DNA of 64,000 bases from Pseudomonas phage NCVTCBPA170, in the sequence record PV733668.1, one strand, 5' to 3'. Shown here one piece after another: positions 43,431 to 45,015 of the stretch. Position numbers and translations under genes: made by a program. The notes beneath the pieces were generated by a model that saw only the letters and a program-made list of their open reading frames with translations, made no database searches and had not been told where the DNA came from. Each line of letters opens with the position of its first letter. Positions within the stretch are counted from its first letter, which is position 1.

Positions 43431-43802
43431 ATGGACGTGATGGACGACGATTTTGAGTTCCCTGATATCCTGCCGGAGTGGGCTGAAGAGTTTCATCCCT
43501 CGGAAGGAAAGCACCAGATAGGGGCGCAGTTGGCGACTAAGGATGGACGAGTAACTGGGAATGGGGTGATATTCTGTGCTGTGCCGTGGAAATTCTACCC
43601 TAAGCTTGACCTGTTCCTTGTGGTGACGGATGCAGGAAACGTTCTCAAGTTGACCGAGTACGAGTTGAACAGCCTCTTCCACTGGCCACAATATATTGCC
43701 GACCTCAACCAACCGACTCCGGCTGAGGTGATGTATACGGTAAAGACAGGACCAATTGGGGACCTTATTCAAAACTTCAAGGAGGAAAACGGACATGCGT
43801 AA
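43431..43802 (+). CDS. hypothetical protein, 123 aa
   Basis: internal ATG right after the upstream stop. Confidence 0.4.
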   Translation: MDVMDDDFEFPDILPEWAEEFHPSEGKHQIGAQLATKDGRVTGNGVIFCAVPWKFYPKLDLFLVVTDAGNVLKLTEYELNSLFHWPQYIADLNQPTPAEVMYTVKTGPIGDLIQNFKEENGHA

Positions 43803-45015
43803 ACTATCTTCAATTCGTCAAGTGTCAGGTATCGAACCCATCGAGGGTGCAGACCGGATCGAGAAGGCCTTCTTCGGGGGCTGGACCACCATCGTTCCAA
43901 AAGGTGTGCTGTCCCCCGGCGACCTGGCAGTCTACTTCGAGATTGACAGCCTGCTGCCTGTGGCAGACCCAGCATTCTCTCACCTCACCAAGAACCTGGT
44001 GAAGGTTACCCGGAAGAAAGAGTCCTGTTCCCTGGGGATGGGTTGCGAGGTGGTGGGAGCCTGTTATGCCTCGTCGCAAGGTTGCCCTAGTGAGTGCGGT
44101 GGCGAAGAGGAGGTGGTATACTCTCGCCTGCGGACTATGAAAATGCGAGGTGTCACCTCTCAGGGTTTGGCCCTTCCTCTACGAGCCTTCCCAGGCCGCC
44201 TGGCACAGTTGGAAGCTGGCATCCTTCGCCGGCTACAGAAAGCACCCGTGCAAGAGGTGTTGGACGACCTGAATGAGAAGATGCCGCTGGATGAAATGCT
44301 CGGCGTGCTGAAGTACGAGAAACCTGAAGAGGTGGAGGCAGGGAATAGTAATGTCTCCCGCGTCAGCACGTTCCCCTCATACATCCCGAAGACGGACCAG
44401 GAAAGGGTCCAGAACATCCCGCTGGAGAAGGTCATTGCAGATGGACCATATCAGGTAACCATCAAGATGGATGGCTCCAGTTGCACCGTATGGGTGAATG
44501 AAGAGGGTGTGGGCATGGCCAGCCGAAATCAAACACTCGTGGAGCCCACCTGGACGAATTTCCCCAGCTTCGAGGATTGCAATCACTTTGGGCAGGCCGT
44601 CCTGGACCAGGACATCCCGCGCAAGTTGGCAGAGTTCTATGAACTCAGCAAACAGCCGTTCGCAATTCAAGGCGAGGTGTGTGGCCCGGCTATTCAGGGC
44701 AACAAGGAGAAACTGGAGAAACCTACCTTCTTCTTGTTCAGTGTCTTCAACATCAAGGAGGGTGCCTACGAGTCCCCAGAGTATTGCAGGATGCTGGCGG
44801 AAACTCTCGATATTAAGCATGTGCCTGTGCTCTCGACTCAGCATGTGTTTGAAGATGTCACTTATGCCGACATCCTTGCCATGGCTGAAGGTAAGAGCTA
44901 TAATCCTGCCACCAACAGGGAAGGCCTTGTTTTCACAGCGGTAGACAAGAACCGCTACGGTCACTACCCCCATTTCAAAGCTATCAGCCAATCTTGGCTG
45001 GCGAAACACGAGTAA
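43795..45015 (+). CDS. ATP-dependent RNA ligase (Rnl family; N-terminal domain + KxDG nucleotidyltransferase) with a Cys-rich insertion
   Basis: AAGGAGG RBS; KMDGSS motif I; EGLVF motif IV; KAISQSW motif V; inserted CSLGMGCEVVGACYASSQGCPSECGG Cys cluster. Confidence 0.6.
   Translation: MRKLSSIRQVSGIEPIEGADRIEKAFFGGWTTIVPKGVLSPGDLAVYFEIDSLLPVADPAFSHLTKNLVKVTRKKESCSLGMGCEVVGACYASSQGCPSECGGEEEVVYSRLRTMKMRGVTSQGLALPLRAFPGRLAQLEAGILRRLQKAPVQEVLDDLNEKMPLDEMLGVLKYEKPEEVEAGNSNVSRVSTFPSYIPKTDQERVQNIPLEKVIADGPYQVTIKMDGSSCTVWVNEEGVGMASRNQTLVEPTWTNFPSFEDCNHFGQAVLDQDIPRKLAEFYELSKQPFAIQGEVCGPAIQGNKEKLEKPTFFLFSVFNIKEGAYESPEYCRMLAETLDIKHVPVLSTQHVFEDVTYADILAMAEGKSYNPATNREGLVFTAVDKNRYGHYPHFKAISQSWLAKHE

What the first reader, a model, noticed from the sequence alone, without database searches (positions are those of the whole stretch)
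43795..45015. Rnl-type RNA ligase with a cysteine-rich insertion, in a phage that also carries tRNAs
The protein has the covalent nucleotidyltransferase motifs KMDGSS, EGLVF and KAISQSW, with an N-terminal domain typical of Rnl5/DRB0094-like ligases. It carries an unusual CSLGMGC...CYASSQGCPSECGG insertion that may bind metal. Phage RNA ligases classically reseal host-cleaved tRNA anticodon loops to counter PrrC, RloC or colicin-type defence. Together with the tRNA cluster this points to an RNA-repair or anti-defence function. No polynucleotide kinase/phosphatase partner was recognised. The healing enzyme may lie among the unassigned ORFs, for example 1297..1872, or elsewhere in the genome.
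Basis: partly seen in the sequence, partly recalled or inferred. Interest (0 to 1): 0.65.

Follow-up and report, generated by a model that had tools for sequence, protein, structure and literature searches.

The report
Phage RNA ligase with cysteine module
This is an already annotated nick-sealing RNA ligase of a Pseudomonas phage, but its odd cysteine-rich loop is a small portable four-cysteine module that other phages carry alone or grafted into other nucleotide-handling enzymes.

Summary
ORF 43795-45015 (+) encodes a 406-aa protein identical to the annotated RNA ligase of Pseudomonas phage KPP10 (genus Nankokuvirus). It belongs to the Rnl5 (DraRnl/NgrRnl) clade: N-terminal OB domain, C-terminal nucleotidyltransferase domain, and all nine NgrRnl active-site residues conserved. 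The predicted fold matches NgrRnl with TM 0.88. Characterised Rnl5 enzymes seal 3'-OH(RNA)/5'-PO4 nicks in duplexes. They are not the Rnl1-type enzymes that repair tRNA anticodon loops. No Pnkp, HD or 2H healing enzyme was found in 30 unassigned proteins of the genome, and the phage has a separate DNA ligase. A natural isolate, Ab17, lacks the ligase N-terminus and is viable. The tRNA-repair or anti-defence reading is therefore not supported. The new result concerns the insert. Residues 78-103 (C-x5-C-x5-C-x6-C-x3-C) sit at the tip of an OB beta-hairpin and occur only in Nankokuvirus ligases. They are homologous to an uncatalogued four-cysteine module (CS[LM]GVGC-x3-G-x-CYA-x3-G-x-P-x2-CG). 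That module occurs as 61-86-aa phage proteins in replication-gene neighbourhoods, inserted in a phage DHFR, and fused to a dNTP diphosphohydrolase. Metal binding and biological role remain inferred.

The parts
43795..45015 (+). Rnl5-type ATP-dependent RNA ligase gene (406 aa plus stop). The protein is identical to KPP10 gp041 (BAJ09160).
43780..43785 (+). Shine-Dalgarno AGGAGG, nine bases upstream of the ATG at 43795. It supports this start over the upstream TTG at 43756.
43795..44184 (+). N-terminal OB domain (about residues 1-130), the signature of the Rnl5 clade. R2, D51 and, further on, K173 match the ATP gamma-phosphate and second-metal contacts R4, D53 and K121 of NgrRnl.
   Evidence: PF21189; alignment; PMC7261155; strands
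44002..44121 (+). Whole insertion relative to NgrRnl and other Rnl5 ligases (residues 70-109). It includes the extended beta-hairpin arms E68-74 and E104-111.
44026..44103 (+). Portable cysteine module, residues 78-103: C78-x5-C84-x5-C90-x6-C97-x3-C101-G-G. C78, C84, C90 and C101 are the four family-invariant Cys. C97 is an extra Cys shared with P0135 and P0150. pLDDT is below 50 for residues 78-101 of the AF2 model. This is a divergence hot spot among Nankokuvirus strains.
44197..44304 (+). Helical linker (about residues 135-170; H137-149, H152-162, H165-169) between the OB and nucleotidyltransferase domains. It is longer than in NgrRnl and variable in length among phage homologues.
44362..45012 (+). 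Nucleotidyltransferase domain. Motif I is K224-MDGSS (44464-44481), motif III is QGE292-294 (44668-44676), motif IV is E376-GLVF (44920-44934) and motif V is F-K395-AIS (44974-44988). R204 corresponds to NgrRnl R149. There is no C-terminal appendage.
43431..43802 (+). Upstream gene (homologue of PAK_P3 gp43, 123 aa, PHROG of unknown function). Its stop codon overlaps the ligase start by 8 nt (ATGCGTAA), so translational coupling is likely. No homologue lies next to the ligase in distant relatives.
44876..44904 (+). Sigma-70-like promoter TTGCCA-17-TATAAT (11 of 12 matches) embedded in the ligase 3' end. It is identical to the promoter_03 annotated on PAK_P3 and serves the downstream early genes, not the ligase.
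43067..43087 (+). Terminator-like hairpin after the SPFH/Band_7 gene. It bounds the gp42-gp43-ligase unit on its 5' side.

Best explanation
Shown. The gene encodes an Rnl5-family (DraRnl/NgrRnl-type) ATP-dependent RNA ligase of a KPP10-like Pseudomonas aeruginosa myovirus. It has the family's N-terminal OB plus C-terminal nucleotidyltransferase layout and every active-site residue known from NgrRnl. A roughly 33-residue segment inserted at the tip of a beta-hairpin of the OB domain is homologous to a small, uncatalogued phage module with four invariant cysteines. That module also exists as free-standing 61-86-aa proteins, as an insertion in a phage dihydrofolate reductase, and as an N-terminal fusion to a dATP/dGTP diphosphohydrolase.

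Inferred from the characterised family members. K224 is adenylylated by ATP, probably with Mn2+, and the OB residues R2, D51 and K173 orient the pyrophosphate leaving group. AMP then passes to a 5'-PO4 at a nick, and a ribonucleotide 3'-OH attacks to seal it. The substrate is a nick in duplex RNA or in an RNA:DNA hybrid, not a broken single-stranded anticodon loop, so no end-healing kinase/phosphatase is needed.

Inferred biology. This is an accessory repair enzyme, dispensable in the laboratory. It rises modestly in PAK_P3, whose late-versus-early change resembles that of the primase/helicase. It would seal RNA-ended nicks arising during an infection that heavily damages RNA.

Inferred for the module. 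It is an autonomously folding, probably metal-bound (Zn or Fe-S) knob whose ends lie close together, so it can be spliced into surface loops. It is not part of the catalytic site. Most likely it adds a docking or regulatory surface shared by phage nucleic-acid and nucleotide enzymes.
For: Family assignment:
- Pfam PF21189 plus PF09414.
- phrog_968 'RNA ligase', E 3.9e-104 over the full length.
- NgrRnl is the best PDB sequence match, E 1.6e-46.
- AF2 model has pLDDT 86.9. Foldseek gives NgrRnl TMt 0.88, E 3e-31. T4 Rnl2, the next non-NgrRnl match, reaches TM below 0.5.

Active site: R2, D51, K173, R204, K224, D226, E294, E376 and K395 align with R4, D53, K121, R149, K170, D172, E227, E312 and K326 of NgrRnl.

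A separate ATP-dependent DNA ligase lies at 7530-8801 (-).

Rnl5 substrate preference: PMC4408790 and PMC5397189.

Insert position: only Nankokuvirus ligases carry it, at the hairpin E68-74/E104-111. Another, unrelated 23-aa insert sits at the same site in P0006 and P0007.

Module homology:
- phmmer of the 36-aa insert against 1.84 billion representatives gives 4 non-ligase hits, E 2e-4 to 9e-4, with the same Cys pattern.
- A profile search gives 13 small proteins, E 1e-13 to 7e-6.
- An HMM built only from those 13 hits the ligase insert at 42-50 bits, and hits no other Rnl5 or window ORF.
- Reciprocal tblastn of P0139 hits the ligase insert at E 5e-4 in 2.3 Gb.

Other architectures: DHFR insertion (PF00186, 2e-29) and dGTP_diPhyd_N fusion (PF18909, 1.8e-26).

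Neighbourhoods of free copies: primase, AAA_24, ERF/SSB, helicase/exonuclease, DNA polymerase, DNA ligase.

Constraint: all five Cys are invariant in 14 Nankokuvirus variants, with TGT/TGC flips at 4 of 5 codons. Meanwhile 11 of 33 insert positions vary against 30 of 373 elsewhere, Fisher p 1e-4.

Dispensability: the Ab17 deletion.

Expression: PAK_P3 gp044 has log2 late/early 1.71, against 1.79 for the primase/helicase.
Against: - No biochemical data exist for any phage Rnl5 in the searched literature. Substrate preference is extrapolated from enzymes about 33% identical.
- TIGR02306 scores 137 bits, below its equivalog cut-off of 151.
- The module could not be modelled. pLDDT is below 50 in the ligase and 60 for a free-standing member. 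Fold, metal binding and the closeness of its ends are therefore unproven.
- Module positions that are invariant in the free-standing family (G-V-G before the second Cys) vary in the ligases (G/A, M/L, G/D). pN/pS is higher there, 0.23 against 0.07. This fits relaxed constraint, meaning a partly decaying passenger, as well as it fits an adaptive surface.
- With only 33 positions, the invariance of the five Cys alone is not significant (p about 0.11).
- The module is net acidic, which argues against direct nucleic-acid binding.
Confidence: 0.7

Rival explanations
1. Anti-defence tRNA repair. The ligase reseals host-cleaved tRNA anticodon loops (PrrC, RloC or colicin-type nucleases), as T4 Rnl1 does with Pnkp, and acts in concert with the phage tRNA genes.
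For: - There is a phage precedent (T4 Rnl1/Pnkp; established knowledge, cited in PMC4933390).
- The phage carries tRNA-Asn, Tyr and Gln.
- PAK_P3 infection strongly induces the host RtcAB RNA-repair operon, so RNA damage does occur.
- The ligase is dispensable on a laboratory host, as expected of a conditional counter-defence gene.
- NgrRnl has weak single-strand RNA circularisation activity.
Against: - The protein is Rnl5, not Rnl1 or Rnl4. It lacks the Rnl1 C-terminal tRNA-specificity domain, and T4 Rnl1 matches only the nucleotidyltransferase core (TM about 0.33-0.35).
- Characterised Rnl5 enzymes need a nicked duplex and are feeble on single-stranded RNA.
- Anticodon nucleases leave 2',3'-cyclic-PO4 and 5'-OH ends that need healing. 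No kinase, phosphatase, HD or 2H enzyme was found in 30 unassigned proteins or in the RefSeq annotations of the whole genome.
- The tRNA genes are 30 kb away in a different unit.
Confidence: 0.12
2. Replication or DNA-repair ligase. The enzyme seals RNA-ended nicks in phage DNA, for example short ribonucleotide patches laid down during gap filling. This was proposed for DraRnl in radiation recovery.
For: - DraRnl loss delays genome reassembly after irradiation, and Rnl5 accepts a DNA 5'-PO4 strand and a DNA template (PMC5397189).
- The gene lies just upstream of primase/helicase and DNA polymerase.
- PAK_P3 gp044 has a late/early change similar to primase/helicase (1.71 against 1.79).
- The Cys module's other hosts and neighbours are DNA-replication and nucleotide enzymes.
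Against: - The phage already has an ATP-dependent DNA ligase.
- Okazaki junctions present a DNA 3'-OH and an RNA 5' end, the wrong polarity for Rnl5.
- The natural deletion mutant is viable.
- There is no direct evidence for ribonucleotide patches in this phage.
Confidence: 0.25
3. The Cys-rich segment is a functionless passenger: a tolerated loop expansion or decaying domain remnant at a permissive site, with no role in the ligase.
For: - The site tolerates other insertions (P0006 and P0007).
- The segment is the most variable part of the gene and departs from the family consensus at G-V-G.
- AF2 gives it no confident structure.
- The whole N-terminus is dispensable in Ab17.
Against: - All Cys, plus Y91, A92, G96, P98 and G102, are kept in all 14 variants despite 11 of 33 positions changing.
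- Cys codons show only synonymous flips.
- pN/pS of 0.23 is still purifying.
- The same module is conserved across unrelated phages and hosts, and is inserted or fused in at least three different enzymes.
Confidence: 0.2
4. The KxDG domain is really a DNA ligase or an mRNA capping enzyme.
For: There is only a marginal hit to phrog_114 'ATP-dependent DNA ligase' (E 0.0064, residues 192-249). DNA ligases and capping enzymes appear far down the fold-search list (E above 1e-5, TM 0.32 or below).
Against: - Pfam, PHROG, NCBIfam, PDB sequence and fold searches all put RNA ligase, specifically Rnl5, first by tens of orders of magnitude.
- The OB domain is N-terminal, not C-terminal as in all DNA ligases (PMC7261155).
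- A bona fide DNA ligase is encoded elsewhere.
Confidence: 0.02

Closest known systems
Naegleria gruberi RNA ligase NgrRnl (PDB 5COT and others) and Deinococcus radiodurans DraRnl, the Rnl5 family
   Same: Same domain order: N-terminal OB, C-terminal nucleotidyltransferase, no C-terminal appendage. About 33% identity. Predicted fold TMt 0.88. All nine active-site and ATP-contact residues are conserved.
   Different: It carries a roughly 33-residue Cys module spliced into an OB hairpin and a longer helical inter-domain linker (406 aa against about 340). It scores below the TIGR02306 equivalog cut-off. It is a phage enzyme with no biochemistry done.
Rnl5-type 'RNA ligase' genes of other phages (Pakpunavirus PAK_P1-like, Aeromonas T4-like, jumbo phages; phrog_968)
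   Same: Same family, already annotated as RNA ligase in hundreds of GenBank phage records. The nearest relatives (about 41% identity) share a Band_7/SPFH gene a few genes upstream.
   Different: None of the 120 best homologues outside Nankokuvirus has the Cys module.
T4 Rnl2 (nick-sealing) and T4 Rnl1 with Pnkp (tRNA anticodon-loop repair)
   Same: Covalent lysyl-AMP mechanism. Rnl2 has the same in-vitro preference for RNA-3'-OH nicks in duplexes (PMC5397189).
   Different: Their accessory domains are different and C-terminal. Only the nucleotidyltransferase core superimposes (TM 0.33-0.47). No Pnkp partner is present here.
Zinc fingers attached to DNA ligases: the Cys4 finger next to the OB domain of NAD+-dependent LigA, and the N-terminal zinc finger of DNA ligase III (from general knowledge, not tested here)
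   Same: A small cysteine-rich, presumably metal-bound element appended to a ligase near its OB domain.
   Different: No sequence similarity. The spacing here is C-x5-C-x5-C-x10-C rather than CxxC pairs. The module is acidic and also occurs in non-ligase enzymes.
Rrf2-family (IscR/NsrR) Fe-S cluster loop, C-x5-C-x5-C (recalled from memory; a lead only)
   Same: Identical spacing of the first three cysteines within a glycine-rich loop.
   Different: No detectable homology: Pfam scans of the insert and of module proteins found nothing above threshold. The fourth ligand and the context differ.

Membership tests
Rnl5 RNA ligases (DraRnl/NgrRnl) | N-terminal OB domain fused to a C-terminal nucleotidyltransferase domain, with no C-terminal appendage | tested here: met
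   PF21189 begins at residue 4 and PF09414 covers 218-386. The protein ends 11 residues after motif V. The AF2 model superimposes on the whole of NgrRnl (TMt 0.88).
Rnl5 RNA ligases (DraRnl/NgrRnl) | Motif I lysine nucleophile and motifs III, IV and V, with the catalytic-metal carboxylates and ATP-phosphate contacts | tested here: met
   K224, D226, E294, E376, K395 and R204 align with K170, D172, E227, E312, K326 and R149 of NgrRnl.
Rnl5 RNA ligases (DraRnl/NgrRnl) | OB-domain residues that hold the ATP gamma-phosphate and second metal (R4, D53, K121) | tested here: met
   R2, D51 and K173 are invariant in the 121-sequence alignment.
Rnl5 RNA ligases (DraRnl/NgrRnl) | NCBIfam TIGR02306 (RNA_lig_DRB0094) equivalog score cut-off | tested here: not met
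   137 bits against a cut-off of 151.15. The match is split into two stretches by the insertions. This lowers 'equivalog by NCBI rule' but not family membership by fold and motifs.
Rnl5 RNA ligases (DraRnl/NgrRnl) | Seals 3'-OH/5'-PO4 nicks in duplexes only when the 3'-OH strand is RNA; prefers Mn2+ | not testable with these tools
   Needs purified protein. This is inferred from NgrRnl and DraRnl.
Rnl1-type tRNA-repair ligase with Pnkp (T4 system) | Rnl1 C-terminal tRNA-specificity domain | tested here: not met
   There is no C-terminal domain. T4 Rnl1 structures match only the nucleotidyltransferase core (TM 0.32-0.35).
Rnl1-type tRNA-repair ligase with Pnkp (T4 system) | Partner 5'-kinase/3'-phosphatase (Pnkp) or another end-healing enzyme in the genome | tested here: not met
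   Pfam scans of 30 unassigned proteins, including ORF 1297-1872 and all ligase neighbours, found no such domain. PHROG scans of ten of them gave only families of unknown function. None is annotated in KPP10 or PAK_P3 RefSeq. The test is at sequence level only, so a cryptic fold cannot be excluded.
ATP-dependent DNA ligases | OB domain C-terminal to the nucleotidyltransferase domain; DNA-ligase profile match | tested here: not met
   The OB is N-terminal. Only phrog_114 matches, at E 0.0064 over 58 residues. A separate DNA ligase lies at 7530-8801 (-).
Unnamed phage four-cysteine module (free-standing members P0139-P0151) | C-[ST]-[LM]-G-V-G-C-x3-G-x-C-Y-A-x3-G-x-P-x2-C-G, i.e. C-x5-C-x5-C-x10-C with the invariant G, Y-A and final C | tested here: met
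   An HMM built from the 13 free-standing proteins alone scores 43.5 bits on the window ligase, aligned without gaps. All four Cys, Y91, A92, G88 and P98 are present. G-V-G reads G-M-G here. Single-sequence and reciprocal searches agree.
Unnamed phage four-cysteine module (free-standing members P0139-P0151) | Metal (Zn or Fe-S) coordination by the four cysteines | not testable with these tools
   AF2 models are of low confidence. There is no solved relative.
Pfam PF23710 (DUF7155) | Score above the gathering threshold (27 bits) | tested here: not met
   Only sub-threshold hits (12.5-13.7 bits, E 0.08-0.17) on three module proteins, and none on the ligase insert.

The most novel reading that the evidence does not exclude
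The four-cysteine segment is a portable metal- or Fe-S-binding adaptor. Phages graft it onto enzymes of nucleic-acid and nucleotide metabolism (RNA ligase, DHFR, dNTP diphosphohydrolase) and also express it free from replication-gene clusters. It would tether these enzymes to a common hub, such as a replisome or nucleotide-synthesis complex or a host protein, or gate them by redox or metal state. In Nankokuvirus it would retarget an Rnl5 nick-sealing ligase. Its strain-to-strain hypervariability, with cysteines fixed, would reflect an arms race at that interface.
Probability: 0.2. Interest if true: 0.65.

Novelty: new variant of a known kind. Interest (0 to 1): 0.4.

Why it matters
The ligase itself adds little. 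Rnl5 genes are already annotated in hundreds of phage genomes, and this one is in GenBank as 'RNA ligase'. Three things are worth keeping.

1. The physiological substrates of Rnl5 ligases are still called 'uncharted' (PMC5397189). Nankokuvirus offers a tractable system: a natural N-terminal deletion isolate (Ab17), published transcriptomes, and a host that switches on its own RtcAB RNA-repair operon during infection.

2. The Cys-rich loop is a previously uncatalogued mini-domain that behaves like a cassette. It occurs alone, inserted in surface loops of two unrelated enzymes, and fused to a third, always in phage DNA or nucleotide-metabolism contexts. Defining its ligand (metal, partner) could explain a recurrent class of small phage ORFs.

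3. It warns against reading every phage RNA ligase plus tRNA genes as a PrrC-type counter-defence.

Tried and rejected
- Tandem-repeat origin of the insert: TRF found nothing.
- Word-indexed search with the 42-aa insert alone found no candidate. The full HMMER scan was needed.
- Pfam and PDB scans of the insert peptide: no hits at E up to 10.
- A degenerate DNA pattern for the ligase-specific half of the insert (CYAxxQGCPxECGG) found only a Nankokuvirus contig in IMG/VR and nothing in the metagenome collection. The ligase-embedded form appears confined to this genus.
- A close-relative scan of IMG/VR found one locus only.
- Structure of a free-standing module protein: pLDDT 60.5, too poor for a fold search.
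- Donor copy of the module in the same genome or in the nearest insert-free relatives: none.
- YcaO/thiazole-type modification of the Cys/Gly-rich loop. An old CDD note on PAK_P3 gp43, the gene coupled upstream, prompted this. It is rejected: gp43 is 123 aa with no Pfam hit at E 0.05 or below, and free module genes have no YcaO neighbours.
- Intein remnant: the segment is too short and lacks the terminal signatures.
- Lipobox or secretion signal: the segment is internal to a cytoplasmic enzyme.
- Healing enzyme among neighbours, ORF 1297-1872, or the 24 kb of genome outside the window: none found.
- Literature search for the motif strings and for DUF7155: nothing relevant.
- One call failed on coordinates and was redone.
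Full report
WHAT THE WINDOW IS. The window is a KPP10/PAK_P3-like Pseudomonas aeruginosa myovirus of the genus Nankokuvirus. Bases 40000-50000 are 95-97% identical to about 40 such genomes. Bases 1-16000 are 99.3% identical to KPP10. The ORF at 43795-45015 (+) has an AGGAGG nine bases before its ATG. It encodes a 406-aa protein identical to the KPP10 protein deposited as 'RNA ligase'. 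At the level of 'a phage RNA ligase is here', the finding is already in GenBank.

CHECKING THE OBSERVATION. KMDGSS (224-229), EGLVF (376-380), KAISQSW (395-401) and the stretch CSLGMGC...CYASSQGCPSECGG (78-103) are all present as described. Pfam finds PF21189 (PHA02142 OB-fold) and PF09414 (RNA_ligase) well above threshold. PHROGs gives phrog_968 'RNA ligase' over the full length, E 3.9e-104. NCBIfam gives only TIGR02306 RNA_lig_DRB0094, at 137 bits, under its equivalog cut-off of 151 because the match is split by insertions. The best solved relative is Naegleria gruberi RNA ligase, NgrRnl, E 1.6e-46. An AlphaFold2 model built on 121 sequences has mean pLDDT 86.9 and pTM 0.82. It matches NgrRnl with TM 0.88 on the target length. 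T4 Rnl2, the next non-NgrRnl match, matches only through the nucleotidyltransferase core (TM below 0.5), as do Rnl1, Rnl3, DNA ligases and capping enzymes. Using the alignment, every residue that the NgrRnl structures and mutagenesis identify at the active site is conserved (PMC7261155):
- R4, D53 and K121 in the OB domain correspond to R2, D51 and K173.
- R149, K170, D172, E227, E312 and K326 in the NTase domain correspond to R204, K224, D226, E294, E376 and K395.
The phage also has a separate ATP-dependent DNA ligase at 7530-8801 (-).

WHAT THE FAMILY DOES, AND THE tRNA-REPAIR IDEA. DraRnl and NgrRnl seal 3'-OH/5'-PO4 nicks in duplexes whose 3'-OH strand is RNA, and they prefer Mn2+. NgrRnl is feeble on single-stranded RNA. 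The Shuman laboratory assigns stem-loop (tRNA) repair to Rnl1 and Rnl4, and duplex nick sealing to Rnl2 and Rnl5 (PMC4408790; PMC5397189). The physiological substrates of Rnl5 are called uncharted. The one genetic result links DraRnl to genome reassembly after irradiation.

Anticodon nucleases leave ends that need a kinase/phosphatase. I scanned 30 unassigned proteins. I found no kinase, phosphatase, HD or 2H domain. None is annotated in KPP10 or PAK_P3 RefSeq. The three tRNA genes (Asn, Tyr, Gln) are 30 kb away.

A published natural isolate, Ab17, has a 3271-bp deletion. It removes seven upstream ORFs and the 5' part of the ligase gene, and the phage still grows on PAO1 (PMC4482731). Deleting the N-domain abolishes adenylylation and nick sealing in NgrRnl. 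The ligase is thus probably inactive in Ab17 and dispensable in the laboratory.

In the PAK_P3 RNA-seq data, the orthologue gp044 is weakly expressed. It rises 3.3-fold from 3.5 to 13 min (log2 1.71), much like the primase/helicase (1.79). The same study reports massive host RNA degradation and strong induction of the host RtcAB repair operon. Together this supports an accessory nick-sealing repair role. It does not support an Rnl1-style anticodon-loop repair system.

THE INSERT. NgrRnl has about 7 residues where this protein has about 40 (residues 70-109). The model places the segment at the tip of a beta-hairpin of the OB domain (strands 68-74 and 104-111), with pLDDT below 50 for residues 78-101. 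Among the 120 best homologues (next best about 41% identical), only Nankokuvirus ligases carry it. Two metagenomic relatives have a different, cysteine-free 23-aa insert at the same place, so the site is permissive.

In 14 Nankokuvirus variants, 11 of the 41 variable positions fall in these 33 residues (Fisher p 1e-4). All five cysteines are invariant. At the DNA level, nine genes give these values:
- Insert: pS 0.345 and pN 0.080.
- Rest of the gene: pS about 0.15 and pN about 0.012.
- Four of the five Cys codons flip between TGT and TGC without ever changing the residue.
Against PAK_P3, the insert is one of about five divergence hot spots in 43 kb: 23% against a mean of 2.5%, on a par with the tail-fibre tip.

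THE INSERT IS A COPY OF A PORTABLE MODULE. A full HMMER scan of the 36-aa insert against 1.84 billion representatives returned four non-ligase proteins, E 2e-4 to 9e-4. They share the pattern C-[ST]-[LM]-G-[VM]-G-C-x3-G-x-C-[YF]-A-x3-G-x-P-x2-C-G, and one has three tandem copies. A profile search then found 13 proteins of 61-86 aa, E 1e-13 to 7e-6. An HMM built from those 13 alone hits the Nankokuvirus ligase insert at 42-50 bits, without gaps. It hits nothing else among 120 other Rnl5 ligases or the six-frame ORFs of the window. A reciprocal tblastn of a free-standing member recovers the ligase insert in the phage collection (E 5e-4). It also recovers small ORFs in Autographiviridae of P. putida and Bradyrhizobium and in Xanthomonas and Clavibacter phages.

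Four cysteines (78, 84, 90, 101 here) are invariant across the family: C-x5-C-x5-C-x10-C. C97 is an extra one. The module is not in Pfam or PHROGs; only sub-threshold DUF7155 hits appear. The motif does not appear in the searchable literature.

A degenerate DNA pattern found it in 12 IMG/VR contigs and two bacterial genomes, possibly in prophages. The architectures include:
- free-standing genes;
- an insertion inside a bona fide phage dihydrofolate reductase (PF00186, 2e-29, with about 34 extra residues between the helix and the IxxIGG strand);
- an N-terminal fusion to a dATP/dGTP diphosphohydrolase (PF18909, 1.8e-26);
- positions within 150-310-aa proteins of unknown function.
Free-standing genes sit among small ORFs next to primase, AAA_24/DUF669, ERF/SSB, a helicase plus exonuclease, DNA polymerase or DNA ligase. 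No second copy exists in the Nankokuvirus genome or in the nearest insert-free relatives.

HOW IT MOST LIKELY WORKS. Catalysis should follow the classic three steps through K224-AMP, with the OB domain helping step 1. This is shown by conservation and inferred for activity.

The module is far from the conserved ATP contacts in sequence, sits on a hairpin tip, and is net acidic. It recurs in loops of unrelated enzymes. I therefore read it as an autonomous, probably metal-bound knob whose ends lie close together. It would add a docking or regulatory surface rather than take part in catalysis. The spacing of its first three cysteines equals the Rrf2/IscR Fe-S loop. That is a recollection, not a test, and no homology was detectable.

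The opposite reading is a tolerated passenger drifting under relaxed constraint. The departure from the family's G-V-G consensus in some strains and the higher pN/pS (0.23 against 0.07) favour it. The strict retention of all Cys, Y, A, G and P positions, and the module's conservation across unrelated phages, count against it. The raised synonymous divergence is unexplained. Local recombination or CRISPR-escape mutations are untested possibilities.

VERDICT. The tRNA-repair and anti-defence mechanism is not supported. The ligase is already known at the annotation level. The new element is that its 'odd loop' is a member of an uncatalogued, promiscuous phage four-cysteine module. That makes this a new variant of a known kind, of moderate interest.

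Noticed in passing
window 44876-44904 (+): A near-consensus sigma-70 promoter (TTGCCA-17-TATAAT, 11 of 12) lies inside the ligase coding sequence. It is identical to promoter_03 annotated on PAK_P3. In PAK_P3, the genes downstream of the orthologous promoter, gp045 and gp046, are 'early', while the ligase itself rises later.
   Followed up: partly
window 43431-43802 / 43795: The upstream 123-aa gene (PAK_P3 gp43 homologue, unknown PHROG) overlaps the ligase start by 8 nt (ATGCGTAA), which suggests translational coupling. It is absent next to the ligase in the 41%-identical relatives.
   Followed up: partly
window 37250-37300, 45510-45560, 52750-52930, 55290-55360: These are the other short hot spots of divergence (18-27% against a 2.5% mean) between this phage and PAK_P3. 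The first lies in the 3' part of a tail-fibre gene. The others lie in small genes of unknown function and near the HNH endonuclease gene.
   Followed up: no
window 13144-13643 (+): Three tRNA genes: Asn-GTT, Tyr-GTA and Gln-TTG. The PAK_P3 study reports an abundant late small RNA between two of the phage tRNA genes.
   Followed up: no
window 7530-8801 (-): A separate ATP-dependent DNA ligase gene. Nearby are a helicase, a DprA-like protein, a dCMP deaminase and a second endolysin-like gene on the minus-strand arm.
   Followed up: no
window 42209-43060 (+); L011 2699-3610; L012 1925-2803: An SPFH/Band_7 gene lies a few genes upstream of the Rnl5 ligase here and in two metagenomic phages whose ligases are only about 41% identical. 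This could be conserved synteny or shared ancestry.
   Followed up: partly
L035 (phage Ab17, LN610576) 2310-3214: A natural 3271-bp deletion removes seven ORFs (including SPFH, gp42 and gp43) and the ligase 5' part, leaving a 252-aa fusion ORF. The phage is a viable isolate.
   Followed up: yes
L029 6986-7609 (+) (IMGVR_UViG_3300009347_000241): A phage dihydrofolate reductase with the same four-cysteine module spliced into a surface loop. In L023 2873-3430 (-), the module is fused to the N-terminus of a dATP/dGTP diphosphohydrolase.
   Followed up: yes
L019 3731-4165 (+) (P. putida phage Villemi) and L020 2998-3213 (+) (Rhizobium phage Paso): The module is encoded in reading frames not annotated in GenBank. 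In Villemi it overlaps, in another frame, the 3' end of the gene between DNA polymerase and RNaseH; this may be a frameshift product or an overlapping gene. In Paso it overlaps the annotated 'putative secreted protein' between DNA ligase and DNA polymerase.
   Followed up: partly
P0136 (356 aa, metagenomic): One protein carries three tandem copies of the four-cysteine module.
   Followed up: no
GenBank records MT118294, MT118295, MT118300 (Epa16, Epa18, Epa26): The same gene is annotated there as '2'-5' RNA ligase' (the LigT/2H family). This does not fit the Pfam, PHROG, NCBIfam and PDB matches of the window protein, about 96-97% identical, all of which are to ATP-dependent RNA ligase.
   Followed up: no
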